Assembly: GCA_000092065.1 (NCBI GenBank)
Contig: CP000585.1
DNA length: 64,000 bases
DNA from: Ostreococcus lucimarinus
Taxonomy: Eukaryota
Strand: one strand, 5' to 3'
Shown: positions 5,514-64,000 of the stretch, piece after piece
Layout: every line of letters begins with the position of its first letter
Numbering within the stretch: the stretch's first letter is position 1
Notes under the pieces: model-generated
Told to the model about the DNA's origin: nothing
Database searches by the model: none
What the model saw: only the letters and a program-made list of their open reading frames with translations
Position numbers and translations under genes: made by a program

Positions 5514-5722
5514 AAAGTTCTCACCGTAGAAGGAAAAAAAGTGACATCACATCGACGACACAAATCACGACCGCGTCTCGCGACACTCGCCCGCGCGCAC
5601 TCGCGTCGAATCGAAAGCGCGAAACGCCTCGCATGCGCCCGTCTGCGCTCGCACGCCAAACCCTCCACGCGCCCGCGCGTCGCGTCTGTCGGCCGCGCGA
5701 CGGTCCCGCGTCGTCACCGCGC

Positions 5723-6391
5723 ATGACGTCACGCATCGCGCGCGCCGTCGCGCCCGCGGACATCGATCTCCCCAACCCGGCGGCGATATACGACGTGTGC
5801 GACGAAGAATCCATGCTCTACGGCCCCGCGAACACGTTCGCCATCAAACCGGATGATCTCATCGTGCGATGCAAGACGGTGCTCAAGAATGGCTTCGCGA
5901 ACATCGCGGGTGATTTGGCGGAAGATTTTCAATTCATTGGCCCCGTGGTCGGACCGCTTCCGGCGAAGGCGTTCGTGAAAGCGGTCGGGGGATTCGATCT
6001 CACGCAAGGATTCCCGGACATGAAGAGTAATTATTACCATTTCCGAGTCGACCCGTACGAGACGAATCGGGTTTGGTTCACGAACCGAACGACGGGGACG
6101 CACACGGGAAAGCTCGCGGGACGATTCGAAGCGACGGGGACGCGGGTGGAATGCCCGCCGCAGGCGCTGTCGATGACGTTTAATGCGGAAGGGAAGGTGA
6201 CGAAGATCACGGTTGGAGTGGTGATGGACCGCACGCTCGGTAATACGGGCGGGCTCGGTGGCGTATTTGGGTTGTTCAACGCCATCGGCTCGCCTTTGCC
6301 GTTCCCGGAGGCGCGACCTTGGAAGATGAGCAAGCGTTACCGATTGTTCCAATGGATCGGGAGGCTCGCGAGTCGCGGGAACGACGATTAG
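5723..6391 (+). CDS. Hypothetical protein, NTF2-like/SnoaL-like fold suspected
   Basis: Protein-like ~222-aa ORF from the internal Met (MTSRIARAV...). The upstream ORF part is Arg/Pro-rich and probably non-coding. Family assignment is from general composition only. Confidence 0.35.
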   Translation: MTSRIARAVAPADIDLPNPAAIYDVCDEESMLYGPANTFAIKPDDLIVRCKTVLKNGFANIAGDLAEDFQFIGPVVGPLPAKAFVKAVGGFDLTQGFPDMKSNYYHFRVDPYETNRVWFTNRTTGTHTGKLAGRFEATGTRVECPPQALSMTFNAEGKVTKITVGVVMDRTLGNTGGLGGVFGLFNAIGSPLPFPEARPWKMSKRYRLFQWIGRLASRGNDD

Positions 6392-6444
6392 ACACAAAAT
6401 TGAATTATTTAAATACAACAACGCCGCAAAGAATTGATTTACTT

Positions 6445-19256: not shown

Positions 19257-19347
19257 AATCCAAATTGAAAAGCCGTTAGCCAAGCATCGACTGACTAATC
19301 ATTCCACCCTCCGGCCCGCACACGTCGCCTCGCGCGCCGCGGGCGCC

Positions 19348-22300
19348 ATGCTGGCGCACATCGCGAAAACCGTGAGCGACACGGTGCAGAAAACCACGCG
19401 CGCGCGCGCGTGCGAGCGTTTAAAGCCGTCCGGGACGCTCGCGCTCGACAAACAGACGGGCGCGGTTCGCGCGCTCGGAGTCGTCGACGAACGCCTGCTC
19501 GGCGCGTGCGATGACGGCGGACTGCGTTGTTGGAGCACCACGTCGGGGGCGCTGACGTCGCAAGCGCGCGCGCACGCGGGCGCGGTGACGGCGATGGTGA
19601 CGTCGAAGGATGGGACGCGCGTGACGAGCGCCAGCGAGCGCGGCGACGCGGCGACGCGAGACGCGCGCACGGGCGTCGTGACGATGGAACTCGAAAATGG
19701 CGTCGATGCCGTTGCGCTGTGGTGCCTCGGGATGTTGACGAGCGGAGAGTTGGTGGGAGGGGACGACGTGGGGAGGATTTTCGTGTGGGAGGACGGCGAA
19801 CGGTTTCCAATTTGGCGATTCGCGTCGACGGCCGAGTCGGCGCCGATGCCTGGGAAGGCAAAACGTCTGAAGCCTTCGGAAGGGCCGCCTGATCGCGTGC
19901 ACGCGGTGTCGGGGTGGGTGCATCGTTCGACGGGGAAGGAGTTCGTGGTGAGCGGGAACGGGCATGGGATTCTGAGTCTGTGGACGGTTCGCGTGGGCAA
20001 GCCGGTAGCGGAGTTCGGTCCTGACGACGGCGGGCATCGGGGCGCGATTCACACCGTGTGCGATAACGAAGGCGTGATCGTTACCGGTGGGGCGGATGGG
20101 CGCGTGTTGGCGTGGTACGTCAACGAAGAAGGTCAGCTTCTCGGTCCACCGGAGGAACTCAGCGTCCACGGACATCACACGGGCGCCGTGTTATGCGCGG
20201 CGAGCATCCGTCCCGGCTTTGTGTGCACGGGAGGCGTCGATGGACGCGCGTTGGTGTGGGATATCAAGGCGCGAGCAGTATTATTTGAGTGTCCGGGCAC
20301 GAAATCGGCGGGAGCTGTGCGGTCGCTCGCCTTCGATGGAAATGGTGTGCTTTACGTCGGATGCGCTCTGTCACAAATTTCACGATGGGAATTGCCGAGC
20401 GACGAGTTTCTCAGCTCTCGCAGTCGCGACGAGCTCCCCTTACTAACGCGTAACATGAGCAGCGAAAACATTAGTCAAGCTGTGCCACACTCGGTGAGCG
20501 CGCCGACCCCGAAGCGAGACGTCGCCGCGGAAGAATTGAGTCTCGCAGATACAATCAAGACGCTGGACGCCGTTCGCAAAGAGTGTGAGCGTTTACGAGA
20601 GTCAGACAGGAGTCGCGCATCGAAGGTTATAGGCCTTGAAAAGGAGCTCGTGACCGTGAACAAGTCGCTTGCTAACGTCGGAGAGGAAAATCAGCGACTC
20701 AGGGCCAAGGTAGATTCGATGGCGCCAACGCCGAGCGTTGCGCCGAAGGACGACGAAATCGAGGCGCTGCGCAAGAAGTGCGACAAGATGGAGAACATCG
20801 CTCGTAAGCAAAAGACGAAAATCGAAGAGCTGAAGGGCGAGTTACAATCGGCGGAAAGCTCGCGTGCCGAGGACCAAAAGCGCGCGACAGACGAGCTCGA
20901 GGCGTCGAACGAGAAGCTGGCAGGCCTGCATAAAGAGCTTGAAGAAGCGCTCGCGGGCGCTCAGGGTGAAGGTTTGAGCGTGGAGGACATGATGGCTGCA
21001 GCCGAGAAAGCTTTGCTGAGTCCAGAGCCTGCGACGAGTGAAGCATCCCAGGAAATGATGCGCGAGCTGCATAGCGTGCGGGAAGAATTGCAACTGTCTA
21101 AACAAGACGTCGCGAGTGCGGAGCAGACCATCGCAAAATTGCGCACGCAGCACGATGTGCTCACCGCACGCGCAAAGGAAATAGAGGAACAGAGCCAATC
21201 CCTTTCACAATCACAAGACGCAAAAGTGGCGACGTTACGTGAGGATGTGACATCCCTTCGCGAAAAACTCGGGTCAAAGGATGCGGAATTAGACGATTTG
21301 CGCAAGCAACTCGGCGAAGCGAAGAAGCGAGCCGAAGCGCTCGATAGGGAACGTCTCGAACTCACGGCGCAATGCGAAGAAACATCAAGGCACCATAAAG
21401 ACGTTGACGCATCAAACGCTGAGGTTACAAGAATGCGCGAAAAATTTGAAAACGCAGTCACGAAAGGCAAAGGATTCCAAGAAGAAGGCAAAAAGCTCCG
21501 CGCAGAGCTTGAGGCGAAACACGTGGAGCTGGCCCAAGCTCAGGATGTTTCGACTTCGATGCGGGCTCGCGTGACAGAGCTTATGGCGAGTTTAGACGCC
21601 GCAAACGAGAAAGTCACCGATGGGCTTCGGCTTCTTGCGCAGAAGGAGGAAGAAGTAGCCAGGAGTGCGTCGACATTGAAAACCGTCGAGAATGCGGCGA
21701 AAGAACTCAACACAGCGAAAGCGGAGACAGCCAAACTGCAGCAAAAGTTTGATAACGCGGTCAAGAAAGGAAAAGGATATCAAAGCGAGTGCGGTGCGCT
21801 CACCGCTCGGCTGAAAGAACGCGAGAGCGCGTTGTCGGCATCAAATGCGTCAAAGGCTCAGGTTGAATCACAGCTTGCCGCTGCTGTCGCAGAAATTGAG
21901 CTCGTGCGTTCCGAGCTCGAGACAAGACTTGACGACGTGCAGCGCAATTCCACAAAAGATACCGAAGAACTTAATTCATTGCGCGAGCGCTTGCACGACG
22001 CCGAGGCGCGCCTTCGTGCTGCAGAAGATACGAAGGGCTCCGCCATTGCGGAGCGCGAAGGTAAAATCTCTGCGCTGGAGAAGCAAATTAACGAGTCAGA
22101 TGCGAACTTTGAGCGGATGCGCACCGAACTAGCAGCGCGTGATGAGGAACGCGATCGACTTATATCGCAGATCAAATCGAGCGAAGCGGCCCAGGAGGAG
22201 CTTCAAAAGCTTCGCTCGAGCATCGAGTCATACGAGACGGAAATGGTGTCTCTCAAGACTGCGATAGACACGGCGAAGACAAAATTTGCCAATGCGGTTA

Positions 22301-23322
22301 AGAAAGGGAAAGGATTTCAAGAAGACGCTAATAAACTTCGTGATGAATTAGCCGCGAAAGATGCCGAGCTTGCACATGCCCGCGGCGAGTCAGCTTCGGT
22401 AGACACTCACCGCGCTGAGCTCGCGGCGAGTTTAGATGCTGCGAACGCGAAGATCTCAGATGGCCTTCGCCTTCTTGCGCAGAAGGAAAACGAAATCTCG
22501 GGTCTGGCGGCGGAGTTGAAAGCAGTCCAAAGTCGATGTACTACGCTCGAAGAGGATATCAGCAAGAGAGACGCCAAGAAGAACGATGAAATCGAGCAAG
22601 ATGTGCGGGGACAGCGGTGGCTCGAGGAGCAAGCACGCGCTGCGGCGGAGTCTCAAGTGAGAGATTTGGCGGAGGAGAACGAACGACTGAAGCAAGAAGT
22701 TGCGGCAGCAGCGGCTGCAGCGCAGGACGCGTGGCAAGTTGCGGCGAGCCACGGCGTGCGTCCTGGAGATTCTCGGCCTGTGAGCGAAGTGGGGTCCCCC
22801 GTTCGCGAAGGCTATGGTCATCGAGCACGCTCGCTCTATCAACAACCAACGTATCGAGGTGCCATGTCGATGGTGCACGAAAGGAACGACATGGTTGTAC
22901 CCAGAGAAGACTACGACCGCGTCAAGGAGCGATGTGTAAAATTGAAGAGAGATTTAGAGGCGGCGAAGCAGGCGGCAAAGGAAGCTGTGCAGCAAGTCAT
23001 CAACCGTTTGGAGCTGGAAGTGATGGCCAAAATTCATGCTGAATCTTCCGCGAAAGCCGCAGAAGCGGAATGTGATCGCGCGTGGGCGCACGCAAAAGAC
23101 GCGCTAGCTACGGCGCGCGAGATGCAAAAGCAACCGGCTCGTCAGCTAGCTGTCGCCGAAGCGTCAAGCGTCAAGCCACAGCCACCCCCGGGTACGCGCG
23201 CGGCGGTTGCGATGGAGCGTCAAAACGGTAACGGCGTGGTCGTCATTCGACAAGAACACTTAGCATCGATCGTCGCCGCGCTCCTCTCATTCATCATCGG
23301 AACGTGGTTTGCGAAATTCTAG
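19348..23322 (+). CDS. WD40-repeat N-terminus plus ~800-aa coiled-coil with C-terminal transmembrane tail anchor
   Basis: Begins at the first ATG after the patatin stop; the ORF-track start 18868 overlaps the patatin 3' end in another frame. WD-like blades at aa ~60-480. Long coiled coil containing three copies of KF(E/D/A)NAVKKGKG(F/Y)Q...LLAQKE. Final 20 aa are hydrophobic (IVAALLSFIIGTWFAKF). Confidence 0.6.
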   Translation: MLAHIAKTVSDTVQKTTRARACERLKPSGTLALDKQTGAVRALGVVDERLLGACDDGGLRCWSTTSGALTSQARAHAGAVTAMVTSKDGTRVTSASERGDAATRDARTGVVTMELENGVDAVALWCLGMLTSGELVGGDDVGRIFVWEDGERFPIWRFASTAESAPMPGKAKRLKPSEGPPDRVHAVSGWVHRSTGKEFVVSGNGHGILSLWTVRVGKPVAEFGPDDGGHRGAIHTVCDNEGVIVTGGADGRVLAWYVNEEGQLLGPPEELSVHGHHTGAVLCAASIRPGFVCTGGVDGRALVWDIKARAVLFECPGTKSAGAVRSLAFDGNGVLYVGCALSQISRWELPSDEFLSSRSRDELPLLTRNMSSENISQAVPHSVSAPTPKRDVAAEELSLADTIKTLDAVRKECERLRESDRSRASKVIGLEKELVTVNKSLANVGEENQRLRAKVDSMAPTPSVAPKDDEIEALRKKCDKMENIARKQKTKIEELKGELQSAESSRAEDQKRATDELEASNEKLAGLHKELEEALAGAQGEGLSVEDMMAAAEKALLSPEPATSEASQEMMRELHSVREELQLSKQDVASAEQTIAKLRTQHDVLTARAKEIEEQSQSLSQSQDAKVATLREDVTSLREKLGSKDAELDDLRKQLGEAKKRAEALDRERLELTAQCEETSRHHKDVDASNAEVTRMREKFENAVTKGKGFQEEGKKLRAELEAKHVELAQAQDVSTSMRARVTELMASLDAANEKVTDGLRLLAQKEEEVARSASTLKTVENAAKELNTAKAETAKLQQKFDNAVKKGKGYQSECGALTARLKERESALSASNASKAQVESQLAAAVAEIELVRSELETRLDDVQRNSTKDTEELNSLRERLHDAEARLRAAEDTKGSAIAEREGKISALEKQINESDANFERMRTELAARDEERDRLISQIKSSEAAQEELQKLRSSIESYETEMVSLKTAIDTAKTKFANAVKKGKGFQEDANKLRDELAAKDAELAHARGESASVDTHRAELAASLDAANAKISDGLRLLAQKENEISGLAAELKAVQSRCTTLEEDISKRDAKKNDEIEQDVRGQRWLEEQARAAAESQVRDLAEENERLKQEVAAAAAAAQDAWQVAASHGVRPGDSRPVSEVGSPVREGYGHRARSLYQQPTYRGAMSMVHERNDMVVPREDYDRVKERCVKLKRDLEAAKQAAKEAVQQVINRLELEVMAKIHAESSAKAAEAECDRAWAHAKDALATAREMQKQPARQLAVAEASSVKPQPPPGTRAAVAMERQNGNGVVVIRQEHLASIVAALLSFIIGTWFAKF

Positions 23323-36286: not shown

Positions 36287-37438
36287 ATGGTCGACGCCGA
36301 CGCCGCGGACGGCGTCGAGGGCGACGCGCGCGAGCGCGAGGCGTTTCTGAAGATCGCGCGCGCCGTGCACGCGTACGACGCCGACGCGGCGCGACTGCTC
36401 GAGCGATGGCGCGCGCGACTCGAGCGGGACGACCTGCCGAAACGCTACGACGGCGCGCTCGACGGCGCGCGACGGGACGTGCGAACGCTCGGTGCGAAAG
36501 CCAAGGCGTTAAACTATGATTTCTTGCGGTGCGCGCTGCACACGTTCGTGGATAATGAGCGCGCGCCCGCGCATTTGCGCATTCCGAGCGCGCGCGTCGC
36601 CGCGTGGTCGCGGGACGAAGCGTTTCGCGCGGAGCGGGACGACGTGGATAAGGTGCGGTACGTGCTGAAGAATGTGTGGCGAGATTGGTCGGAAGAGGGT
36701 GCGCGCGAGCGGAAACCGGTGTACGATTTGATATTCTCGGCGTTGAGGGAGAAGTTGGGGGCGATCGACGCGCGCGTCGGGAGCCCGGTTGGCGAGGCGC
36801 CGCGCGTGCTCGTGCCTGGATGCGGTTTGGGACGATTGGTGTTTGAGTTAGCCAAGCTCGGATACGACGCGCAAGGGAATGAGTTTAGTTACTACATGTT
36901 GATGTTCTCTTCGTTTTTGCTGAACGCGACGAGCGAGGTTGGGGAATTTGGAATTTGTCCATGGATGCATAGTCGAAGCAACCATCGCGAGGCGGCGGAC
37001 ATGTGGCGGGAAACGCGCATCCCAGATGAGGTTCCGGGCGACGCGAATTTGCCACCAGGAGCGATGATGAGCATGGCCGCTGGGGACTTCGCGGCGGTGT
37101 ACGGAGAGGCGCGCGAAACCGGAATGTGGGACGCCGTCGTGACGTGCTTCTTCATCGACACCGCGCACAACATCGTAGAGTATTTAGAGTGCATCGCCAA
37201 CTGCCTACGTCCTGGAGGATGTTGGGTGAATTTCGGGCCATTGCTTTATCATTGGGAAGAGTACGTCGACGAACAGAGCGTCGAACTGTCGCTCGAGGAA
37301 GTGCTCGCCGCGGCGGAATCGTTCGGCTTGCGCGTCGAGCGCTCGGAATCGACCGCGCCAGTCGACTACACGAGCGATCCACGCTCCATGCACAAGACGA
37401 CGTACTCGTGCGCGTTCATCGTCGCCACCAAAGTGTAA
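36287..37438 (+). CDS. CARNMT1: Carnosine N-methyltransferase-like (N2227/UPF0586 family SAM-dependent methyltransferase)
   Basis: N2227-type motifs: VLVPGCGLGRLVFELAKLGYDAQGNEFSYYML, ICPWMHS, DAVVTCFFIDTAHNIVEYL, GGCWVNFGPLLYHWEE. Start at internal ATG 36287. The upstream ORF-track part is His/Arg-rich and antisense to the Tim17-like gene. Confidence 0.7.
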   Translation: MVDADAADGVEGDAREREAFLKIARAVHAYDADAARLLERWRARLERDDLPKRYDGALDGARRDVRTLGAKAKALNYDFLRCALHTFVDNERAPAHLRIPSARVAAWSRDEAFRAERDDVDKVRYVLKNVWRDWSEEGARERKPVYDLIFSALREKLGAIDARVGSPVGEAPRVLVPGCGLGRLVFELAKLGYDAQGNEFSYYMLMFSSFLLNATSEVGEFGICPWMHSRSNHREAADMWRETRIPDEVPGDANLPPGAMMSMAAGDFAAVYGEARETGMWDAVVTCFFIDTAHNIVEYLECIANCLRPGGCWVNFGPLLYHWEEYVDEQSVELSLEEVLAAAESFGLRVERSESTAPVDYTSDPRSMHKTTYSCAFIVATKV

Positions 37439-37578
37439 CATCACACAGCTGTACATCGCGCCGCACGCGTCATCGCGCGCGCTCGCATCGCTTCGATTCC
37501 GTCGTCGTCTCGCGTCGCGCTTCTTCCCCTCTCTCCCGCGTCCGCACACCGCGTCGTCGCGCGCGCGGGTCCGGGCGA

Positions 37579-40500
37579 ATGCCCTCGCGAGGCGACTCCC
37601 GCTCGCCTCGCGCGTCTCCGCGCGCCGGCGCGACGTCTCGCTCGCCCCATCACGCGGCGAACGAGCGCGCGGATGGCGTTGATGTTGGTGTTGCGACGCC
37701 GCGTCCGGTGAAGATGTCGCCGGTGCCGCACGCGCGACCGCCGAGCGACCTCCCGGCGGCGCTGCGAGAGATCGACCGGTTGCGCGCGCTGCAAGAAAAA
37801 AACGCGTCGAGCGCGATGGTGGCGACGCGCCGGGCGTTCGACGAACAGGCGCGATTGGAGAAGAAAATCGAGACGCTCGAGCGCGCGGCGGAGGAGGCGA
37901 AGGCGAAGGTCGAGGAGGCGACGGTGAAGGCGGAACGCGAGGCGCAAGATACAAAAAAAGCGCTTAAAGCGGCGAAGAAGAAGACGCAAAAGCTGGAGGC
38001 GAAGTTAGAGGAACAAAAGATGGAGACGCGAAAGTGGGAAAAGTACGCGAGCGAGAATTTGCGCGGCGAGATGGCGGAGAGCGCGGAGAAGCTGGAGAGG
38101 GCGAGTCAGCGCGAGATTGAACTCGAGGATCGGTGTTCGAGACAAGAGAGCGCTTTGGAGGCGATGCGTGGGCAGATAGAGGAGTTGAGCTCGACGTTGG
38201 AGGATGAGAGGAAGCGAGTGCAGACCAAGACAAGTTCGCAGGCGAACGAGGTGAAACGGCTTCAAGAGGAATTGCGGGAAGCGTTGGACTCGGCGGCGAC
38301 GATAAAAGAAGAGGCCGATTTGACTGTAGAGTCTTTGCGCGCGGCAATGGAAGCTCAAGTTGGCGGTGGCGACGGTAATGAACGTATGAATGAAGAAATC
38401 CAACGCTTGCGCGCGCGCGTCGAAGAATTGAGCGCGTCGCAGGTATCTTCGACAAGTAGCGACGAGTTCGCTCGATTGGAGGAAAAGACGATCGCTCTAG
38501 AGCGACTTTTAGAAGGCGAGCGCGCATCAAAGGCAGTGTTGCGAGCGGAAAAGGATGAAGTAGAAAGATGCGCCGCTGCAGCGGAGGCGAGCGCGACCGC
38601 TCGCGATGCGAAGACTGCACAACTCGACGAGCAAGTCGCGACTCTGTCACACCAAGTGGTTAACCTTGAGCAAGCTTTGCGTAAAGAACAAGAGTTACAC
38701 GCATCGTCGAAGAAAAAAGCCATCGATGACGTGAGAGCCGTAAGAAATACGTCGACAGCGGCAGAAAAGGCCATCGCGGCGGCGAACGCGGCGATGGATT
38801 CGGCGGAGACGCGCGCTGAACAATCTGAACAAATGGCTCGTGAACGTGAAGAATCCATCAAACAGCTCACCACGCAACTGGCTGATGCAAAGCGCCGTGA
38901 GGACCAACTGAGGTTAGAGTTGAGCAAGTCTTCGGATTCCGATTCTCAACAACTAAAGGAGAAGCAACAGAGAATTGAAGAGCTCTCGACGCGAGTCGCC
39001 GAACTGGAAACTGTTTCCAAGCAAGTCGATGATCTGAAGGAGGCTCTCCGTTCGGCGACCGCTGCCACGACGGCAGCCGCGCGTTCCATCGAAGAAAGCG
39101 AAGTCGAACTGGCGCAAGAGCGTCAGCGCGCTGGGGTCGCGGAAGAGAAGTTCGCACAGGCTCGCCAAGCCGCTGAGGAAGCCTTGAAGAGCGTCCAGGA
39201 ACGCGACGCACGAATAAAAGAGTTGACACTTGAGCTTCAATCGACATCAGCTCAAGTAAAGGAGGCGCGGGACAACATGCAACTGATCTCTGCGAGCGCA
39301 TCTTCGAACGAAGAGATTGAGAAACGCCGAGAAGTTGAGGTTCAAGCCGCGACGTCGCTGGCAAAAGCCTCCGAATCACGCGCAGCTGGACTTGCATCAC
39401 AGCTTAAGATTGCCGAAGACGCGCGAGAGGAAGCGGCCAAGGACGTCGATCGCTTGAAACGTGAACTGAGTACCGCGCTAAATTCGCTGAAGGCGAGCAA
39501 ATCAGCGGCAACACGCGCGGTTCAAGAAGCCGTGAGTGCGAGCGGTAAACGCGCGCAACAATTGACAAAGGAGCTCGAAACGGCGAAACAAGAGCATGCG
39601 AGCGCACGATCCGTCGTCACTGACTTAGAGGTTGAGAACAAACGCATCAAGAACCAATATGCTGAGCTTGAAATCCTCGTCGCACAGCTCAGAGAAAGTC
39701 TCCAGACGATTGAAAGAGATGCCGAGACAAAGAATCATGACAAATTGGACATGGAGTACATGCGGCGAGAAGAAGATCTTCGTGCAGAAATCAGCGACTT
39801 GGTTCTCGAGTTGCACGAAGTTCGCGATGATTCTATGTCCAAGATAGAAACGGCCGAACGACAAGTATCCGCGCTGGAATCCCAAATCGAGGAGCTGGAG
39901 GCGGCGCTCATTCAAAGCCGCGACGAGACTCGAACGCTTTCGCAACAATCCAGCGCCAAGCGGTCCGACTTGACGCAGGAAACGAGTGAATTGAGGAAAA
40001 AACTCGTTGAAGCGCAAGAAATCGCCGCGACAGCATCTGGGGCGACGGAGGCTGTGAAGCGCCGATACGAAGCTCGTCTGCGCGACGCCAGCGAGTTGGC
40101 GGAGAAACAAATCATTTCACTCACGAAGGACCTAGATAACGCGAAACGACTCGTCGAGCTGGCGGAGAAGGCAAAGGCGCACGCGCAACAAGAGGCTGCT
40201 CGCGCGGCTGACGATTTGAAAGAAAAAGACGCCTTATTCGAGGAGCAACTCGCGAACGTTCGTATGGCTGTTAACGCCGTAAACGATGAAAAGCTTGCAT
40301 TGAGTCAACAGGTTGAGGAGGCAAAGGCTGAATGCGCAGCAATTCGGAAGCAAAAGGATGCTATGGAGAACGATCTCGTGGAAACTTGTTCGCTTCTCGA
40401 GAAAGTCTCTGCGAAAGCAAACGCGTCGGCAGATGAATATAAGATAACCATCACCGAAATGAACGCGTCAACTGAGAGTCTCAAGGAAAAGCTCGAGGCT

Positions 40501-41181
40501 GAAATTTTGCTCGCCATGGACCTCGCTGAGGAGAAGGAAATCATCATACGAAAGATGGAAACGCGACAAGACGAACTTCGCGCGCAGCTCGACGCTCTCC
40601 ACGAAAAATCATCGGTGAGCACGTCAAGAGTTGTTGCCTTGGAGTCCAAGCTCAAGGAGACCACCGCGGGCGAACGGGAACGTCTCGTTGTTTTGCAAAC
40701 TGAAAACAAGCGCTTGGAAAAACGACTGAAAGACACCTGGACTGCGTTACAAGGGGCGCACGCAGTGGTTGAGCAAACGAAGACGGCAGCGAAGGATGCC
40801 GTTCGTAAAGCGAATACCGCAGCGTCTCGCGCAGAGAAAGTCGCCCTGAAGCTGAAGCAAGAGCTCGCGAGCGCGCGCGGAAGTCGCCATCCTCTCGTCG
40901 CGGTGGATGAAGGGAGCGAACCGGCATCGCAGTCGGCGTCGCAAACGGCTTTGCGCCCGACATCTACGAAAGCTTCTCCAGTGAAACCGATTGTTCGGGG
41001 CAGTAATAACGCGTTTGACGACGAAATGCAACGCGCTAGTGATCTCTTGGAGCGCATCAGTCGGCAGACAAGTAGAGAATCGAGCTTGAAGGACGACGAA
41101 TCAACTCGAGGCGGAAGCGAGACAAGCAGCCAAGCGGGCGCCCTGGGCGGTTCTTTTGGATACCGCGGGGCGATGCAATGA
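37579..41181 (+). CDS. Large coiled-coil protein (~1200 aa; myosin-tail/golgin-like)
   Basis: Almost entirely heptad-rich E/K/A/L/Q sequence. Start at internal Met MPSRGDSRSP, because the upstream ORF part overlaps the previous gene. No globular domain recognised. Confidence 0.5.
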   Translation: MPSRGDSRSPRASPRAGATSRSPHHAANERADGVDVGVATPRPVKMSPVPHARPPSDLPAALREIDRLRALQEKNASSAMVATRRAFDEQARLEKKIETLERAAEEAKAKVEEATVKAEREAQDTKKALKAAKKKTQKLEAKLEEQKMETRKWEKYASENLRGEMAESAEKLERASQREIELEDRCSRQESALEAMRGQIEELSSTLEDERKRVQTKTSSQANEVKRLQEELREALDSAATIKEEADLTVESLRAAMEAQVGGGDGNERMNEEIQRLRARVEELSASQVSSTSSDEFARLEEKTIALERLLEGERASKAVLRAEKDEVERCAAAAEASATARDAKTAQLDEQVATLSHQVVNLEQALRKEQELHASSKKKAIDDVRAVRNTSTAAEKAIAAANAAMDSAETRAEQSEQMAREREESIKQLTTQLADAKRREDQLRLELSKSSDSDSQQLKEKQQRIEELSTRVAELETVSKQVDDLKEALRSATAATTAAARSIEESEVELAQERQRAGVAEEKFAQARQAAEEALKSVQERDARIKELTLELQSTSAQVKEARDNMQLISASASSNEEIEKRREVEVQAATSLAKASESRAAGLASQLKIAEDAREEAAKDVDRLKRELSTALNSLKASKSAATRAVQEAVSASGKRAQQLTKELETAKQEHASARSVVTDLEVENKRIKNQYAELEILVAQLRESLQTIERDAETKNHDKLDMEYMRREEDLRAEISDLVLELHEVRDDSMSKIETAERQVSALESQIEELEAALIQSRDETRTLSQQSSAKRSDLTQETSELRKKLVEAQEIAATASGATEAVKRRYEARLRDASELAEKQIISLTKDLDNAKRLVELAEKAKAHAQQEAARAADDLKEKDALFEEQLANVRMAVNAVNDEKLALSQQVEEAKAECAAIRKQKDAMENDLVETCSLLEKVSAKANASADEYKITITEMNASTESLKEKLEAEILLAMDLAEEKEIIIRKMETRQDELRAQLDALHEKSSVSTSRVVALESKLKETTAGERERLVVLQTENKRLEKRLKDTWTALQGAHAVVEQTKTAAKDAVRKANTAASRAEKVALKLKQELASARGSRHPLVAVDEGSEPASQSASQTALRPTSTKASPVKPIVRGSNNAFDDEMQRASDLLERISRQTSRESSLKDDESTRGGSETSSQAGALGGSFGYRGAMQ

Positions 41182-59590: not shown

Positions 59591-60767
59591 ATGTCGGCGG
59601 TGGAGACGACGACGAACACCGGGCTCCCGATTCGGATGCCGAACGACGCGCGCGGCGCGACGCACGCGATCGATCCGCTGAGCGACGTGCACACGGCGGT
59701 GAAATCGGCGACGGGGACGAAGATCATCGCGCTGATCGACGTGAGCTCGAGGTTCGCGCTGCCGATCGCGCAAGCGGCGAAAGAGGTGCGGGCGAGATTA
59801 GATTTCCGGAGGATCGCGGCGCGGCGCGCGACGAGTTTCGAGAGACTGACGCGCGAATGGGTCGACGCGGAAACAGCTGGATGTGTGCGTGACGGTGCTC
59901 AAGTCAACGTGTCGCGCGTTCGGCATCATGCGATGGCCGTATCGAAAGATGCGAAAACTGAACACTATGATTAAGCAGCTCGAGCGGTCGGCGAGAAACG
60001 CCGCCGAGGAAAACATATTACATCATAGAATGAAGCGACTTGAAGCGTGTCGACGTGCGAGAGATTTGTTGGTGCTAGAAGCAGAGGCGAACGCACGGGC
60101 GCGAATCGGAAAACCCGCCTCGCAGCAGTCCGCCAAGGCGGAGATAGCGTCGACGGGCGCGCGCTACGATTCCAGCGGGCGACTGGGCAACTTTAAGGAT
60201 CCTGGATACGCTTTCGATACCGACCACAAGGGTTATGCGCTGCATGAGGCGATGCGGAAGATGATGGAGACTGAGGGGTTAGATACGATCGGTCGTTCTG
60301 GTCACGTGGATGTCGAATCTGACCCACTGAGCGAACTCGCCTCGCAGGTTACCGCCGTGCAAGAGCGTTTCGTGCGACGGCCAAATCGCAACAAAAGACA
60401 GCTACCAACCAGATGCCCGGAAGAGATGGCACTACATGAATTCGTCATGGGCAATCCGGGACTCGAGGCAATGGCTTCGTTGACCGCGCGATTGCGCCGG
60501 CAAAAGGAATCGAAGAAACAGACGTCTGAGCACGCCGACGACGCGGACGGCGAAGTCGACATCGATGGGGACGACGGGAAGCAAATTGCGTGGATCGTAA
60601 GCTCTCAAAGTCCAGCCTATACCGTCAATGTCCGTCCAAGTAACCCAACGGCGCGAATTCCAGACGTCTTGGTAGAGGAACGCTCTCGGCGAGAAGCCAC
60701 CTCTCCGCTCGAGCCCAGTCTAGCTCTGTTCCCGTTAAATGTGTCAGCAATCCACAGTGCGGCTTGA
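59591..60767 (+). CDS. RWP-RK domain transcription factor (MID/NLP/RKD family), 2 exons with the RWP-RK domain split by an intron
   Basis: Exon 1 59591..59785 ends ...IIALIDVSSRFALPIAQAAKE (donor GTGCGG). Exon 2 59877..60767 (acceptor aacAG) begins LDVCVTVLKSTCRAFGIMRWPYRKMRKL. Joined, they give the canonical RWP-RK core (compare [36 protein letters not shown]). The two halves lie in different frames in the ORF track. Confidence 0.7.
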
Positions 60768-60994
60768 CACTTGTTACTCAGTATTGCATTATTGTAGAAC
60801 CGCTTAGTATTTTATGTTATATTTATGTACCACGCGAAGTAACTCCCCTTTGCCGCGTATGCCTAGCGAGCGTGCTATCCGCAGTCGCGAAAGGGTCCAA
60901 ACCCTTCGCCGCCACCGCGCGTTCTCAGACGTCCGCGCGCGACCTCTCACGAGCCAAAGAGTGAACCGCGCGAAAGGTCACCGAGTTAGTCGCC

Positions 60995-63900
60995 ATGGGT
61001 AAGACTCCGGCGCAAGAGAACCGCCTGCGCGCGAAGAAGCAAGGGATGTCTCACGAAGACGTCAAAAAAGAGCAAGCCGCCGACGCGCGAAAGATCAAGG
61101 ATCTCGCGAACAAAGACGCGACGTTCGGGATGACGAAAGGAGCGGCGATGAATCGTAAGCATGAAGTTGCCATGCAACGGTTGCGGGACATGAATGACCC
61201 GACGACGGAACTCGGGAAAGCGACGCTCAGGGCGGCGAAGAAGAAGGCCAAGGAGCAGCAAGAGTTTTTGTTGCGAACGAAGGGCATAGACGTGAAACAA
61301 CCGGAATTACAGCCAGGAGTGGACCCGAAGACGGTGCTTTGCGAGTTTTTCAAGCACGGTTGCTGCGCGAAGACGGCGGATAAGTGCAAGTACTCGCACC
61401 AGTTGGATATCGCGACGCGGCAGCAGAAGCGAAGCGCGTTCGAGTTGCCGAGCGAGGACTCCATCGAGATGTGGGATCAGAAAAAGCTCGAAGCTGTCAT
61501 CGCGCGAAAGCACGGGCAGGAAGCGAACACAAACAATGAAACGACGATCGTGTGTAAGCATTTCTTGGATGCGGTTGAGAAGAAGCTTTATGGATGGTTT
61601 TGGCACTGCCCGGGCGGTGCGGACTGCAAGTACAAGCATAAGCTGCCGCCGGGTTTCGTGTTCAAGAGCGAGCTTCGCGAGAGATTGCTCGAAGAAGCTC
61701 GCGCGAGAAAGACCGACCAAGACATTCTACGCGAGAAACTGATCGCGCTGAAGAAGAGCGGGAAGAACACGACGCCGATGACGCTGGATGTGTATTTGGA
61801 GTGGAAGAAAGAGCGCGTCGACAAGATCAAAGCCACTGTGGAGGCTTCGAGGGAGGAGCGCATCAAGAACAACTTGCTCACGGGGCGTGAGATTATTGAA
61901 CAACAGCAGGGTGGAGTCGAGGCGGCGGTCGATGCCGGTGCGAGCGCCGGAGATGACGAAATTGCTCGATTGATGAAGGCGCGCAGAGAGGCGGACGACG
62001 AGGCAGAGCGCAAAGCCGCTGAAGAAGCTGCTGAAAACCTTGCTCGCGCGAAGAACTTGGGTGATCTTTACAACATAGAGATGTTGCCAGATGAGACCGA
62101 CGACTTCGCTGATCTTGAAGAGGAAGAAGACAACTTCGAACCGCCCGAGGGCTGGACTCCAGACGCTGTCGCTCCGGGTGGCGACGGTGGTCAAGACGAA
62201 GCCGCAGCAGTGGAATCGGCGGAACAACCGGATATCAACGAAAAGAAGGCTCGTCGAGAAGCCGAACTCAAGGCTATGGAAGAGGAGGGCATCAAGCTCG
62301 TGCAAAAGACGACGAGAAAGGACAAAGAGGAAGAGCTATTCAAGCCCGCGGTTGAGATCCCGGACGAGGCGTTGGGCGACGGCGAGATGGATCCGAAGAA
62401 GCTCGGTGAAATGATTGCGGCGAAGCGTGCAGCCGAAGAAGCTGAGCGAACGAAACATCTTGCCGATATGGCGGAGGAAAGGGAGCGAAAAGACGCCGCT
62501 AAGGCGGCAAAGAAGGCCGAACGGGAAGCCGCACGAGCGGCGAAGAAGAAGAAGAAGAAGGGTGACGACGAAAATGACGACGTGACGACCATCGAGGCAG
62601 CCCTTGGCAACGTTGAGCTCGAAGAGACTGGAACATCGATGAAACGCATGTCTACTGGTGTGTTGGCGTCTCGTCCCACCGCACGTGATATCAAGATTAT
62701 CAACTTCTCCATGGGTATGGGTGGTCGCGAGCTCATCAAAGACTGCGACATCGAAATCACAATCGGAAGAAGATACGGTTTACTCGGTCAGAATGGCTGC
62801 GGTAAAACAAACTTTCTCGAGTGCTTGGCTCGCCGAGAAGTCCCAATCCCGGATCACATTGATTTGTATCACTTGCGTGAAGAAGCTCTTCCGAGCGAAC
62901 GATCGGCGATTCAAACCGTCATCGATGAAGTTCAAGCTGAGATGGAACGTCTTAACAAGTTTGAACTGCACATTCTCGAAACTACCGGCCCAGATGACGA
63001 ACGTTTGGAGCTTATTTACGACCGACTAGAAGAGATCGATCCTACTACGTTCGAAGCGCGTGCATCTGAGCTTTTGCACTCTCTCGGTTTCTCCCAAACC
63101 ATGATTCATCGCCCAACGGCGGACATGTCTGGCGGCTGGCGGATGCGTGTCGCGCTTGCCAAGGCGTTGTTTGCCCAGCCCACTCTTTTGCTGTTGGACG
63201 AGCCAACGAATCACTTGGATCTCGAAGCGTGCGTGTGGCTCGAACACTACTTGGGACAGTACAAAAAGTGTCTCATAATCGTTTCTCACTCGCAAGATTT
63301 CTTGAATGGCGTCTGTACGCACATCATTTGGTTGACGCAGCAAAAGCTTACATACTACACCGGTAACTACGATACATTCCAGAAAACCGTGAACGAGAAC
63401 AACATCGTGCAGCAAAAGAAGTACGAAAAGGAGCAAGCTGACATCGCGCACTTGCAAGAATTCATCCGCTCGTGTGGTACGTACTCGAACATGCGCAAAC
63501 AAGCCGAATCGAAGCAAAAAATTATCGACAAGATGATGGCCGCAGGTCTCACACCGCCGGTCGCCAAAGAGCACGATTTCAAGTTCGACTTCCCCGAGTG
63601 TCAAAAAGTTCCGCCTCCCGTGCTTCCGTTCGCGAACGTGTCGTTCTCGTACAATGGTAAGAAGGAGGACTACTTGTACGAAGGGTTGGAGCTCGGCGTC
63701 GATTGCGACAGTCGTATTGCGTTGGTGGGCCCGAATGGTGCCGGTAAATCCACTCTTTTAAAGCTCATGACTGGCGAACTTTCGCCGAGTGTGGGTACGG
63801 TCGATAGACACCCGGGTCTGAGCATCGGTAAGTATCATCAGCACTCAGTCGATGTGCTTAACAAGGCGATGACCCCGCTGGAATTTTTCATGGCTGAATA

Positions 63901-64000
63901 TCCCAATAACCTCAAATTCAAGCGTGAGATGGAAGAGTGGCGTGCATACTTGGGGCGCTACGGCGTCAGCGGGCGCATGCAAACGCAGAAAATTGGCGAG
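60995..64000 (+). CDS. ZC3H15/DFRP1 (Tma46-like CCCH zinc-finger, DRG-binding) fused in-frame to an ABCF2/Arb1-type ABC-F ATPase; 3' partial (runs off the window)
   Basis: ATG 60995 after an in-frame TGA at 60962. I translated 1002 codons to position 64000 without a stop; the ORF track omits it because no stop lies in the window. The first ~330 aa are ZC3H15: two CCCH fingers (CEFFKHGCCAKTADKCKYSH; CKHFLDAVEKKLYGWFWHCPGGADCKYKH) and a DFRP region (TLDVYLEWKKERVDKIKA...). After a K/E-rich linker the frame is near-identical to ABCF2: STGVLASRPTARDIKIINFSMGMGGRELIKDCDIEITIGRRYGLLGQNGCGKTNFLECLARREVPIPDHIDLYHL; signature MSGGWRMRVALAKALFAQPTLLLLDEPTNHLDL; second NBD Walker A LVGPNGAGKSTLLKLMTGEL. 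Confidence 0.7.
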   Translation, partial: MGKTPAQENRLRAKKQGMSHEDVKKEQAADARKIKDLANKDATFGMTKGAAMNRKHEVAMQRLRDMNDPTTELGKATLRAAKKKAKEQQEFLLRTKGIDVKQPELQPGVDPKTVLCEFFKHGCCAKTADKCKYSHQLDIATRQQKRSAFELPSEDSIEMWDQKKLEAVIARKHGQEANTNNETTIVCKHFLDAVEKKLYGWFWHCPGGADCKYKHKLPPGFVFKSELRERLLEEARARKTDQDILREKLIALKKSGKNTTPMTLDVYLEWKKERVDKIKATVEASREERIKNNLLTGREIIEQQQGGVEAAVDAGASAGDDEIARLMKARREADDEAERKAAEEAAENLARAKNLGDLYNIEMLPDETDDFADLEEEEDNFEPPEGWTPDAVAPGGDGGQDEAAAVESAEQPDINEKKARREAELKAMEEEGIKLVQKTTRKDKEEELFKPAVEIPDEALGDGEMDPKKLGEMIAAKRAAEEAERTKHLADMAEERERKDAAKAAKKAEREAARAAKKKKKKGDDENDDVTTIEAALGNVELEETGTSMKRMSTGVLASRPTARDIKIINFSMGMGGRELIKDCDIEITIGRRYGLLGQNGCGKTNFLECLARREVPIPDHIDLYHLREEALPSERSAIQTVIDEVQAEMERLNKFELHILETTGPDDERLELIYDRLEEIDPTTFEARASELLHSLGFSQTMIHRPTADMSGGWRMRVALAKALFAQPTLLLLDEPTNHLDLEACVWLEHYLGQYKKCLIIVSHSQDFLNGVCTHIIWLTQQKLTYYTGNYDTFQKTVNENNIVQQKKYEKEQADIAHLQEFIRSCGTYSNMRKQAESKQKIIDKMMAAGLTPPVAKEHDFKFDFPECQKVPPPVLPFANVSFSYNGKKEDYLYEGLELGVDCDSRIALVGPNGAGKSTLLKLMTGELSPSVGTVDRHPGLSIGKYHQHSVDVLNKAMTPLEFFMAEYPNNLKFKREMEEWRAYLGRYGVSGRMQTQKIGE

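What the first reader, a model, noticed from the sequence alone, without database searches (positions are those of the whole stretch)
60995..64000. Single ORF fusing a complete ZC3H15/DFRP1 (Tma46) module to an ABCF2/Arb1-type ABC-F ATPase
From ATG 60995 the frame stays open for at least 1002 codons to the window edge. In this locally ~50% GC stretch a 3-kb stop-free run is not expected by chance.

The N-terminal ~330 aa match ZC3H15/DFRP1 end to end: both unusual CCCH fingers plus the DRG-binding DFRP segment. A K/E-rich linker of ~200 aa follows, resembling the charged N-terminal arms of ABC-F proteins. Then comes sequence nearly identical to ABCF2: NBD1, the ABC signature, a linker and NBD2.

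Both partners are ribosome-associated translation factors (ZC3H15/Tma46 pairs with the DRG1/Rbg1 GTPase; ABCF2/Arb1 binds ribosomes). I do not know of this domain combination. If real, it would physically couple DRG recruitment to an ABC-F ATPase.
Basis: partly seen in the sequence, partly recalled or inferred. Interest (0 to 1): 0.8.

Follow-up and report, generated by a model that had tools for sequence, protein, structure and literature searches.

The report
Conserved DFRP1–ABCF2 translation-factor gene fusion
In the tiny marine green alga Ostreococcus and its relatives, two normally separate ribosome helper proteins are permanently joined into one long protein, a real and conserved fusion that nobody seems to have described and that hints the two helpers work together on the ribosome.

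Summary
Window 60995-64000(+) is an unbroken 1002-codon ORF cut by the window edge; the full protein is about 1108 aa. The window is Ostreococcus lucimarinus CCE9901.

Anatomy: essentially a whole DFRP1/Tma46/ZC3H15 (both CCCH fingers plus the DRG-binding DFRP domain and its charged tail, to about residue 440), a ~50-aa junction, then a whole ABCF2/Arb1 (Lys-rich N-arm, NBD1, PtIM, NBD2, all ATPase motifs intact).

It is not an artefact. The same single ORF occurs in the O. tauri and Micromonas commoda genomes, in Tara metagenome scaffolds and in a Bathycoccus-like contig, with conserved synteny, and on single MMETSP transcripts (Mantoniella, O. mediterraneus). The linker is under purifying selection.

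Outgroups (Pyramimonas, Dolichomastix) encode the two proteins separately. The fused ABCF halves form one clade, so there was one fusion event at the base of Mamiellales. A second, free ABCF2 paralog persists.

An exhaustive search of 1.84 billion protein representatives found no other lineage with this architecture, and no paper mentions it.

Best reading: a tethered DRG1-recruiting/ABC-F factor acting on paused ribosomes. The fusion is shown; the functional coupling is inferred. It is a new variant of known kinds and of moderate interest.

The parts
60962..60964 (+). In-frame TGA that bounds the ORF upstream, 10 codons before the start codon
   Evidence: sequence
60995..64000 (+). DFRP1-ABCF2 fusion ORF, residues 1-1002, cut by the window edge (full length about 1108 aa)
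   Evidence: P0001 is 1108 aa and differs from the window protein at 5 of 1002 residues. XP_001417756.1 of O. lucimarinus CCE9901 carries the window-specific residues.
60995..61309 (+). DFRP1 N-terminal basic/helical region (residues 1-105)
   Evidence: Aligns to the Tma46 N-terminus. dN/dS versus O. tauri is 0.10.
61340..61399 (+). CCCH zinc finger 1 (residues 116-135, CEFFKHGCCAKTADKCKYSH)
   Evidence: C116, C124, C131 and H135 are invariant in 24 orthologs.
61553..61639 (+). CCCH zinc finger 2 (residues 187-215, CKHF...YGWFWHCPGGADCKYKH), the counterpart of the Tma46 finger that binds the 40S subunit
   Evidence: C187, C205, C211 and H215 are invariant. The Tma46 ZnF2 role comes from 10.1101/2020.07.06.190082.
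61655..61954 (+). DFRP (DRG-binding) domain (residues 221-320)
   Evidence: Pfam PF16543 at residues 256-315, 35.2 bits against a cut-off of 27.5. Collinear with Tma46 up to its residue 280.
61955..62314 (+). DFRP1-derived charged C-terminal tail (residues 321-440): a conserved acidic helix followed by a variable segment
   Evidence: Fusion P0007 residues 1-436 align to residues 1-441 of the 448-aa Pyramimonas parkeae DFRP1. Alignment. pN 0.28 against pS 0.73 in the variable part.
62315..62464 (+). Fusion junction (residues 441-490) containing the Mamiellales-conserved motif (L/M)DPK(E/K)LG..(L/I)A.K(K/R)A.EEA
   Evidence: pN 0.14 against pS 0.89 versus O. tauri. No conserved internal Met at the ancestral ABCF2 start.
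62465..62674 (+). ABCF2-derived Lys/Ala/Glu-rich N-terminal arm (residues 491-560)
   Evidence: Aligns to the N-terminus of the standalone ABCF2 proteins P0352 and P0373. The Lys/Ala-rich N-terminal domain of ABCF2 is described in PMC6723617.
62675..63319 (+). ABC nucleotide-binding domain 1 (residues 561-775): Walker A GQNGCGKT, signature MSGGW, Walker B LLLLDEP, H-switch SHS
   Evidence: dN/dS 0.014.
63320..63604 (+). Inter-NBD linker / PtIM (ABC_tran_Xtn, residues 776-870)
   Evidence: PF12848, E 2.3e-19. PtIM function from 10.1101/2023.06.15.543498.
63605..64000 (+). ABC nucleotide-binding domain 2, first part (residues 871-1002; Walker A GPNGAGKS). The rest lies beyond the window.
   Evidence: The remainder (signature LSEGQ, Walker B, H-switch) is seen in P0001.
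59883..60767 (+). Upstream neighbour, an RWP-RK domain protein. Context only: it is the same neighbour as in O. tauri.

Best explanation
SHOWN. This is a genuine protein-coding gene fusion that arose once in the ancestor of the order Mamiellales (Ostreococcus, a Bathycoccus-like lineage, Micromonas, Mantoniella). A complete DFRP1 gene and a complete ABCF2 gene were joined head to tail. The DFRP1 stop codon and the ABCF2 start codon were lost, leaving one intronless ORF of about 1100-1150 codons that is transcribed as a single mRNA. Both modules keep every diagnostic residue, and the roughly 240-aa charged linker between them is translated and under purifying selection.

INFERRED from what the parent families do in yeast:
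- The N-terminal module binds and stabilises the GTPase DRG1 through its DFRP helices, and anchors the pair to the 40S subunit through zinc finger 2, placing DRG1 at the GTPase-associated centre next to the A-site tRNA.
- The C-terminal module is an ATP-driven ABC-F factor that enters a vacant E site and reaches the P-site tRNA and peptidyl-transferase centre with its PtIM.
- The long flexible tether would then hold an A-side GTPase complex and an E-side ATPase on the same paused ribosome (or on neighbouring ribosomes of a collided pair). Arrival of one module would raise the local concentration of the other, so the two activities would be coupled in restarting slow or stalled translation.
- The free ABCF2 paralog probably retains the untethered functions (60S biogenesis, RQC).
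For: The fusion is real:
- A single uninterrupted ORF in O. tauri (L001), M. commoda (L004), two Tara scaffolds (L002, L003) and a 49%-GC Bathycoccus-like contig (L012), all with the same neighbours.
- Complete single transcripts from Mantoniella antarctica MMETSP1106, plus M. beaufortii and O. mediterraneus.

Both modules are under constraint:
- 24 orthologs; majority-residue fraction 0.83-0.84 for the zinc fingers and 0.86-0.90 for the NBDs. The variable linker drops to 15% identity between Ostreococcus and Micromonas yet never loses the frame.
- Against O. tauri, junction pN is 0.14 against pS 0.89, and dN/dS is about 0.1 in the linker segments where dS is calculable.
- All catalytic and zinc-ligand motifs are intact.

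The components are separate elsewhere:
- Pyramimonas parkeae has DFRP1 P0056 (448 aa) and ABCF2 P0357 (609 aa).
- Dolichomastix has ABCF2 P0373 (636 aa).
- The standalone P0352 is sister to the fused clade with 100% bootstrap.

Single origin: the fused ABCF halves are monophyletic at 100% bootstrap. Only one fusion cluster appears among 1.84 billion representatives.

Basis for the mechanism:
- Rbg1 sits at the GAC and contacts the A-tRNA. Tma46 ZnF2 lies between h16 and h33 and is required for ribosome binding. The authors propose that a pause vacates the E site.
- The Arb1 PtIM contacts the P-tRNA and 60S in the same way as bacterial E-site ABCFs.
- Precedent for a DRG-DFRP pair and an ABCF on one complex: Rbg2-Gir2 together with Gcn1-Gcn20 on a disome.
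Against: - No experiment or structure addresses the fusion protein.
- In the yeast Rbg1/Tma46-80S structure the E site holds eIF5A, not an ABCF, so ABCF2 would have to compete with or replace it.
- Yeast Arb1 is described as a biogenesis/RQC factor that is strongly depleted from heavy polysomes, whereas Rbg1/Tma46 works on translating ribosomes. Co-action on one elongating ribosome is therefore not what yeast data suggest.
- Ostreococcus genomes are highly compacted and have several gene fusions, so the fusion could be tolerated rather than advantageous.
- Presence of DRG1 in these algae was not tested.
- The AlphaFold model was too poor to say anything about contacts between the modules.
- Whether a standalone DFRP1 also exists in Mamiellales could not be excluded rigorously.
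Confidence: 0.55

Rival explanations
1. Neutral by-product of genome compaction. Two genes that happened to be neighbours merged when the intergenic region shrank. The modules keep working independently, and the tether has no functional meaning beyond co-expression.
For: [quoted passage not shown]
- The linker is largely the retained tails of the two parents with only about 50 aa of junction.
- The middle of the linker is poorly conserved, at 15% identity between genera.
- No experimental link between Rbg1/Tma46 and Arb1 was found in the literature.
Against: - The fusion has been kept in every sampled Mamiellales genus, including Micromonas and Mantoniella, with no reversion to separate genes. 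Apparent splits are frameshift artefacts.
- The junction carries a conserved motif and shows pN 0.14 against pS 0.89.
- Both partners act on the ribosome, so tethering cannot be functionally silent, because it constrains where each module can be.
- Prior adjacency of the two genes is not demonstrated in any outgroup: in L007 a DFRP1-like gene is next to a glycosyltransferase.
Confidence: 0.3
2. One gene but two proteins. The long ORF is transcribed as one mRNA, but internal translation initiation, an internal promoter or proteolytic cleavage in the linker yields separate DFRP1 and ABCF2 polypeptides in vivo.
For: - The linker is long, charged and predicted to be largely unstructured, the kind of region in which cleavage is easy.
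- The O. lucimarinus reference annotation holds separate models for the two halves: P0045 covers residues 18-301, and XP_001417756.1 covers the ABCF part.
Against: - The ancestral ABCF2 start Met is not conserved in the fusion. That column reads M/L/V/V/V/V in six orthologs.
- The junction is under purifying selection in frame.
- The partial annotation models are trimmed to the conserved segments and do not rest on transcript ends.
- De novo transcripts span the whole ORF.
Confidence: 0.1
3. Artefact: an assembly chimera, a collapsed join, or a sequencing error that removed a stop codon between two adjacent genes.
For: - The window alone cannot exclude it.
- Some public contigs do show the two halves as separate called genes (L005, L006, L010).
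Against: - The same open frame occurs in at least five independent assemblies from four or more genera, and in transcriptomes.
- The 'split' contigs are error-prone long-read or low-coverage assemblies. In them the true frame continues through the called stop and the protein aligns across a frameshift. In L005, P0012 aligns from residue 1 in frame 1 and from residue 414 to 1135 in frame 3, the latter at 93% identity.
Confidence: 0.02

Closest known systems
DFRP1 (yeast Tma46, human ZC3H15, plant C3H11-type CCCH proteins)
   Same: The N-terminal ~440 aa are collinear with DFRP1: the MGKTPAQ start, two unusual CCCH fingers (including the YGWFW.CP finger 2), the DFRP_C domain and a charged tail. 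Match to Tma46 E 6e-41; 48-52% identity to Pyramimonas DFRP1.
   Different: Standalone DFRP1 proteins end after about 345-450 aa. Here the stop is gone and the chain continues into an ABC-F ATPase.
ABCF2 / yeast Arb1 (ABC-F subfamily 2)
   Same: The C-terminal ~620 aa contain a Lys-rich N-arm, NBD1, PtIM and NBD2 with all motifs. The best PDB match is Arb1 (530 bits, against 355 for ABCF1). Identity to green-algal ABCF2 is 70-72%. Murina et al. classed this very protein (XP_001417756.1) as ABCF2.
   Different: It carries a ~490-aa N-terminal extension that is a whole second translation factor. It also coexists with a second, unfused ABCF2 paralog (XP_001418891.1, 63% identical).
Rbg2-Gir2 (DRG2-DFRP2) with Gcn1-Gcn20 (ABCF3) on collided disomes
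   Same: A DRG-DFRP pair and an ABC-F protein are brought to the same stalled-ribosome assembly. This is the closest functional analogy to what the fusion would do.
   Different: There the link is non-covalent, goes through the Gcn1 scaffold, and involves the paralogous DFRP2 (RWD domain) and ABCF3. Here DFRP1 and ABCF2 are covalently joined with no scaffold.
Other ABC-F proteins with added N-terminal modules (eEF3/New1 HEAT domain; ABCF3-WHI2 fusions in four fungi)
   Same: They show that ABC-F factors tolerate and exploit N-terminal domain additions and occasional lineage-specific fusions (PMC6723617).
   Different: None of those partners is a DFRP or CCCH protein. The ABCF3-WHI2 case is confined to a few fungi, and its partner is a stress regulator, not a ribosome-bound factor.

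Membership tests
ABCF2/Arb1 subfamily of ABC-F ATPases | Two tandem ABC nucleotide-binding domains on one chain with no transmembrane domain | tested here: met
   Two PF00005 stretches (582-739 and about 905 onward) and no membrane-domain families among the Pfam hits. The complete second NBD is seen in P0001. No transmembrane-helix prediction was run.
ABCF2/Arb1 subfamily of ABC-F ATPases | Inter-NBD linker of the ABC-F type (PtIM, Pfam ABC_tran_Xtn) | tested here: met
   PF12848 at residues 780-864, E 2.3e-19, 69.7 bits against a cut-off of 25.9
ABCF2/Arb1 subfamily of ABC-F ATPases | Intact Walker A, ABC signature, Walker B with catalytic Glu, and H-switch in both NBDs | tested here: met
   GQNGCGKT / GPNGAGKS; MSGGW / LSEGQ; LLLLDEP in both; SHS / SHD. 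Invariant or more than 90% conserved in 24 orthologs.
ABCF2/Arb1 subfamily of ABC-F ATPases | Closer to ABCF2/Arb1 than to other ABC-F subfamilies; Lys/Ala-rich N-terminal arm | tested here: met
   Arb1 530 bits, ABCF1 355, YheS 304, EttA about 171. The same O. lucimarinus protein is labelled ABCF2 in Murina et al. Text S1. The N-arm aligns to standalone ABCF2 N-termini.
ABCF2/Arb1 subfamily of ABC-F ATPases | Binds the ribosomal E site / 60S and contacts the P-site tRNA | not testable with these tools
   Known for Arb1 (PDB 6r84). Here it is inferred from sequence conservation only.
DFRP1 (Tma46/ZC3H15) | Two N-terminal CCCH zinc fingers, the second of the long C-x17-C-x5-C-x3-H type with a YGWFW motif | tested here: met
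   Residues 116-135 and 187-215. Ligand residues are invariant. They align to the Tma46 fingers.
DFRP1 (Tma46/ZC3H15) | DFRP domain (Pfam DFRP_C, PF16543) above the gathering score, C-terminal to the fingers | tested here: met
   35.2 bits against a cut-off of 27.5, residues 256-315. The precomputed PF16543 hit is present on all 24 orthologs.
DFRP1 (Tma46/ZC3H15) | Forms a heterodimer with, and stabilises, the GTPase DRG1 | not testable with these tools
   Inferred from conservation of the DFRP helices. No complex prediction was available, and the single-chain AF2 model was poor.
DFRP1 (Tma46/ZC3H15) | A DRG1 partner gene is present in the same genome | not tested
DRG1 is expected from its near-universal presence in eukaryotes (general knowledge).
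Gene fusion ('Rosetta stone') of two independent genes | The two components are encoded as separate complete proteins in related organisms | tested here: met
   P. parkeae DFRP1 P0056 (448 aa, complete transcript) and ABCF2 P0357 (609 aa). Dolichomastix ABCF2 P0373 (636 aa). The standalone P0352 is sister to the fused clade.
Gene fusion ('Rosetta stone') of two independent genes | The composite is one ORF and one transcript in several independent data sets | tested here: met
   Genomes and metagenomes. MMETSP transcripts. In-frame constraint on the linker.

The most novel reading that the evidence does not exclude
The fusion is a natural 'Rosetta stone'. On this reading, DRG1-DFRP1 and ABCF2/Arb1 are partners in all eukaryotes. 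They would act on the same paused ribosome from opposite sides, with the GTPase at the A-site/GAC side and the ABC-F ATPase in the vacated E site. That would give ABCF2 a defined role in rescuing slow elongation. In Mamiellales the partnership would simply have been hard-wired by covalent tethering.
Probability: 0.3. Interest if true: 0.75.

Novelty: new variant of a known kind. Interest (0 to 1): 0.5.

Why it matters
The cellular jobs of both parents are still unsettled. DRG1/DFRP1 is linked to relief of ribosome pausing, to development and to a human neurodevelopmental disorder. ABCF2/Arb1 is essential in yeast and is seen in ribosome biogenesis and RQC, but it has no agreed role in translation.

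A fusion kept under selection in every sampled genus of an order of algae is evolutionary evidence that the two activities can, and perhaps should, operate within reach of one another. This turns a vague possibility into a concrete experiment: test for co-occupancy, and for genetic or physical interaction of DRG1-DFRP1 with ABCF2, in yeast or human cells. Ostreococcus tauri, which is transformable, can be used to split the gene.

On the practical side, reference annotation of O. lucimarinus and several metagenome gene calls break this gene into pieces. Domain-architecture surveys therefore miss it, and false 'standalone' entries exist in the databases.

Tried and rejected
1. AlphaFold2 on the 24-sequence alignment gave mean pLDDT 50.7 and pTM 0.30. 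This is too poor for fold searches or inter-module contacts, so no fold search was run. It was used only as a weak hint of helical segments at 320-356, 414-430 and 467-518.

2. Apparent unfused states in public contigs were examined and rejected.
   - L005 and L010 are 'pilon' long-read contigs with frameshifts in the GA/GGC-rich linker.
   - L006, at 5.6x coverage, has at least two frameshifts.
   - L009, at 1.45x coverage, looks chimeric.

3. Other long hits in the exhaustive search were checked for DFRP domains and none had one. P0201 and P0209 are tandem ABCF-ABCF proteins; the rest (P0240, P0259, P0263, P0287, P0292, P0334) have kinase/LRR N-termini or no recognised N-terminal domain.

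4. I first inferred that the fusion is the only ABCF2 in Mamiellales, because no named standalone hit appeared. This was wrong. Murina et al.'s supplement shows a second ABCF2 paralog.

5. Literature searches for any prior description found nothing relevant. The term sets were ABCF+DFRP+fusion, Tma46+Arb1, ZC3H15+ABCF2, Rbg1+Arb1, and DFRP/DRG1+Ostreococcus/Micromonas.

6. The look-up of encoding contigs for the O. lucimarinus partial model P0045 returned nothing.

7. dS between O. lucimarinus and O. tauri is saturated, so dN/dS values are only rough. pN against pS is the safer comparison.


Full report
**1. Observation**

Window 60995-64000(+) translates into 1002 codons with no stop and runs off the window edge. 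At the local GC of 53.6%, a stop-free run this long has a chance probability of about 4e-19. The ATG at 60995 follows an in-frame TGA ten codons upstream. It opens with MGKTPAQ, the same start as all orthologs and as standalone DFRP1 proteins of outgroups.

- Pfam reports DFRP_C (residues 256-315, 35.2 bits against a cut-off of 27.5), two ABC_tran domains and ABC_tran_Xtn (780-864).
- Against solved structures, residues 25-305 align to Tma46 residues 6-280 (7rr5_T, E 6e-41).
- Residues 574-999 align to Arb1 (6r84_A, E 9e-158, 530 bits). The next best match is ABCF1 at 355 bits.
- Both CCCH fingers and both full sets of ATPase motifs are present.

**2. Source organism and annotation**

The window is Ostreococcus lucimarinus CCE9901.
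- The NCBI 'predicted protein, partial' P0045 (284 aa) is an exact substring, residues 18-301.
- XP_001417756.1, as printed in the supplement of Murina et al. 2019, carries the residues that distinguish the window from its closest database relative P0001.
- P0001 (1108 aa) differs at only 5 of 1002 positions and supplies the missing 106 C-terminal residues.

The reference annotation therefore holds the DFRP part only as a trimmed partial model, separate from the ABCF model.

**3. Is the fusion real?**

Yes.
- The same single, intronless ORF is present in the finished genomes of O. tauri (L001, 1116 aa) and Micromonas commoda (L004, 1146 aa).
- It is also in two Tara metagenome scaffolds (L002, L003) and in a 49%-GC, Bathycoccus-like seawater contig (L012, 1116 aa).
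- In every case the neighbours are the same: RWP-RK, TRIP13 and photolyase upstream; methyltransferase, epimerase and UCH downstream.
- De novo transcripts from cultured strains carry the whole fusion: Mantoniella antarctica MMETSP1106 (1138 aa, 'type:complete'), M. beaufortii MMETSP1326 and O. mediterraneus.

Public contigs that seem to show two adjacent genes are artefacts.
- In L005 the true frame continues through the called stop. The ortholog P0012 aligns from residue 1 in frame 1 and from residue 414 to 1135 in frame 3, the latter at 93% identity. This is a frameshift in a GGC/GA-rich stretch of a long-read assembly.
- L010 is the same kind of contig.
- L006 is a 5.6x contig with at least two frameshifts.

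**4. Selection**

Across 24 orthologs, the majority-residue fraction is 0.83-0.84 for the zinc fingers, 0.70 for the DFRP domain and 0.86-0.90 for the NBDs. The variable part of the linker falls to 0.35, and to 15% pairwise identity between Ostreococcus and Micromonas, with many indels. Even so, the frame is never lost.

Codon comparison of O. lucimarinus with O. tauri gives saturated synonymous change (pS 0.57-0.89). Nonsynonymous change is pN 0.14 in the junction, 0.28 in the variable tail and 0.06 in NBD1. All four indels between the two species lie in the linker, and both coding sequences remain single open reading frames. The linker is therefore translated and constrained.

**5. Anatomy of the join**

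- Fusion P0007 residues 1-436 align to residues 1-441 of the 448-aa Pyramimonas parkeae DFRP1.
- The fusion from about residue 528 aligns to residue 49 onward of the standalone ABCF2 P0352. The Lys/Ala/Glu-rich start of P0352 lines up at about residue 490.
- The protein is therefore a whole DFRP1, a ~50-aa junction, and a whole ABCF2.
- The junction contains a motif conserved in all Mamiellales, (L/M)DPK(E/K)LG..(L/I)A.K(K/R)A.EEA.
- The ancestral ABCF2 initiator Met is not conserved.

**6. Distribution and origin**

- An exhaustive HMMER scan of 1.84 billion cluster representatives with the full-length protein returned one fusion cluster (P0016).
- The only other multi-stretch long hits, P0201 and P0209, are tandem ABCF-ABCF proteins without a DFRP domain. 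Six further long hits also lack one.
- Outgroups have separate proteins. P. parkeae has DFRP1 P0056 and ABCF2 P0357. P. obovata has DFRP1 P0057. Dolichomastix tenuilepis, an early-branching member of Mamiellophyceae, has ABCF2 P0373. Chlorophyceae and land plants also have separate proteins.
- In a neighbour-joining tree of ABCF cores (468 ungapped columns, 200 bootstraps), all fused copies form one clade (100%), with the standalone P0352 as sister (100%).
- P0352 lies on a transcript-sized contig with a 43-nt GC-rich leader and a gccATGG start, although there is no upstream in-frame stop to prove completeness.

This points to a single fusion event at the base of Mamiellales.

**7. A second ABCF2**

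Murina et al.'s Table S1 lists two ABCF2 entries for each of O. lucimarinus, O. tauri, M. pusilla and Micromonas RCC299. Text S1 gives the second O. lucimarinus sequence, XP_001418891.1.
- It is 63% identical to the fused copy.
- It is 66-67% identical to other green-algal ABCF2s, whereas the fused copy is 70-72% identical to them.
- It forms its own 100% clade, whose deeper position is unresolved.

Mamiellales therefore keep a free ABCF2 paralog, and the fused copy is the more conservative of the two. No standalone DFRP1 from a named Mamiellales species appeared, but the search tool is not exhaustive, so this remains open.

**8. Mechanism**

Shown: a single polypeptide is encoded, with two intact modules and a roughly 240-aa charged linker (18% Glu, 17% Ala, 11% Lys, 10% Asp).

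From the literature:
- Rbg1 binds the GTPase-associated centre and the A-site tRNA.
- Tma46 zinc finger 2 wedges between h16 and h33 of the 40S subunit and is required for ribosome binding.
- In that structure the E site holds eIF5A, and the authors propose that pausing vacates the E site (10.1101/2020.07.06.190082).
- Arb1's PtIM contacts the P-site tRNA and the 60S subunit in the same geometry as bacterial E-site ABCFs (10.1101/2023.06.15.543498).
- A DRG-DFRP pair (Rbg2-Gir2) and an ABCF (Gcn20, via Gcn1) are found on one collided disome (10.1101/2020.10.31.363135).

Inferred: the fusion tethers a DRG1-recruiting, 40S-anchoring module to an E-site ATPase, so that both act on the same paused ribosome or on neighbouring ribosomes of a collided pair. 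About 200 disordered or helical residues can plausibly span the roughly 100-150 Å between the two sites. Both the reach of the linker and the distance between the sites are my own estimates from polymer scaling and general ribosome dimensions, not computed here.

Caveats:
- eIF5A competes for the E site.
- Yeast Arb1 is depleted from heavy polysomes and is tied to biogenesis and RQC.
- DRG1 binding was not tested.
- The AF2 model was uninformative.

**9. Rivals**

- Neutral fusion through genome compaction is credible, because Ostreococcus has sub-200-bp intergenic regions and several fusions (PMC2850359). It does not explain the conserved junction motif or retention in every sampled genus of the order.
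- 'One gene, two proteins' is possible but lacks a conserved internal start.
- An assembly artefact is excluded.

**10. Novelty**

- Murina et al. 2019, the reference survey of ABCF diversity, included this very protein as ABCF2. The paper does not mention a CCCH, DFRP or Tma46 module; the only ABCF fusion it notes is ABCF3-WHI2 in four fungi.
- A DRG/DFRP evolution preprint does not mention it either.
- No paper in the searchable library pairs Tma46 or Rbg1 with Arb1 in a meaningful way, or pairs DFRP/DRG1 with these algae.
- The full-length proteins do sit in public databases with both Pfam hits, under generic names.

The sequence is therefore not new, but the architecture appears to be undescribed. 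I class it as a new variant of known kinds, with moderate interest: its main value is as an evolutionary pointer to a DRG1-DFRP1/ABCF2 partnership that can be tested experimentally.

Noticed in passing
L005 6001-9401; L010 about 2200-7040; L006 3342-6724: Long-read 'pilon' contigs and one low-coverage contig of Micromonas-like algae carry frameshifts in the GA/GGC-rich linker. Gene callers therefore split the fusion into false 'standalone' DFRP1 and ABCF2 proteins (P0049, P0350, P0351, P0025), and these now sit in protein databases.
   Followed up: yes
Protein P0044 (ENA metagenome contig, 498 aa), C-terminus: The protein matches the window ORF and then ends in ...NCLLYTSPSPRD. That string is frame 2 of the Nextera adapter CTGTCTCTTATACACATCTCCGAGCCCACGAGAC (adapter sequence recalled from memory), which points to adapter contamination at a contig end.
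   Followed up: partly
O. lucimarinus XP_001418891.1 (not in the window); proteins P0412, P0423, P0201: Mamiellales have a second, unfused ABCF2 paralog, 63% identical to the fused copy, that forms its own well-supported clade. Its age relative to the fusion is unresolved.
   Followed up: partly
Proteins P0201 (1308 aa) and P0209 (1281 aa): These are tandem ABCF-ABCF proteins with four ABC_tran domains. The C-terminal half of P0201 is 72% identical to ABCF2 paralog 2, whose neighbour by accession number in O. lucimarinus is an eEF3L. This could be another ABCF fusion or a merged gene model.
   Followed up: no
L009 919-2943 (protein P0026): A Micromonas DFRP1 module (88% identical to M. commoda over residues 1-344) continues into about 330 aa of unrelated Ala/Glu-rich sequence up to the end of a 1.45x-coverage contig. 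It is probably a chimeric contig.
   Followed up: partly
L007 7207-9003 (protein P0030): A 598-aa standalone DFRP1-like protein (41% identity) from an unidentified organism has a long C-terminal extension and sits next to a glycosyltransferase, not an ABCF gene.
   Followed up: no
window 102-5513 (+) and 37126-41181 (+): Two very long ORFs (1803 aa and 1351 aa) have no Pfam match at E 1e-5.
   Followed up: no
window 59883-60767 (+): The upstream neighbour is an RWP-RK domain protein, as in O. tauri. The mechanical ORF starts inside the domain (profile positions 24-49 of 49), so the real start is probably further upstream or spliced.
   Followed up: partly
window 14772-19256 (+); 6445-10128 (-); 18868-23322 (+): A 1494-aa ORF has a C-terminal patatin-like phospholipase domain. 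There are also two long WD40/beta-propeller ORFs. The ORFs at 14772-19256 and 18868-23322 overlap by about 390 nt in different frames.
   Followed up: no
window 1-64000: ARAGORN finds no tRNA gene anywhere in the 64-kb window.
   Followed up: no
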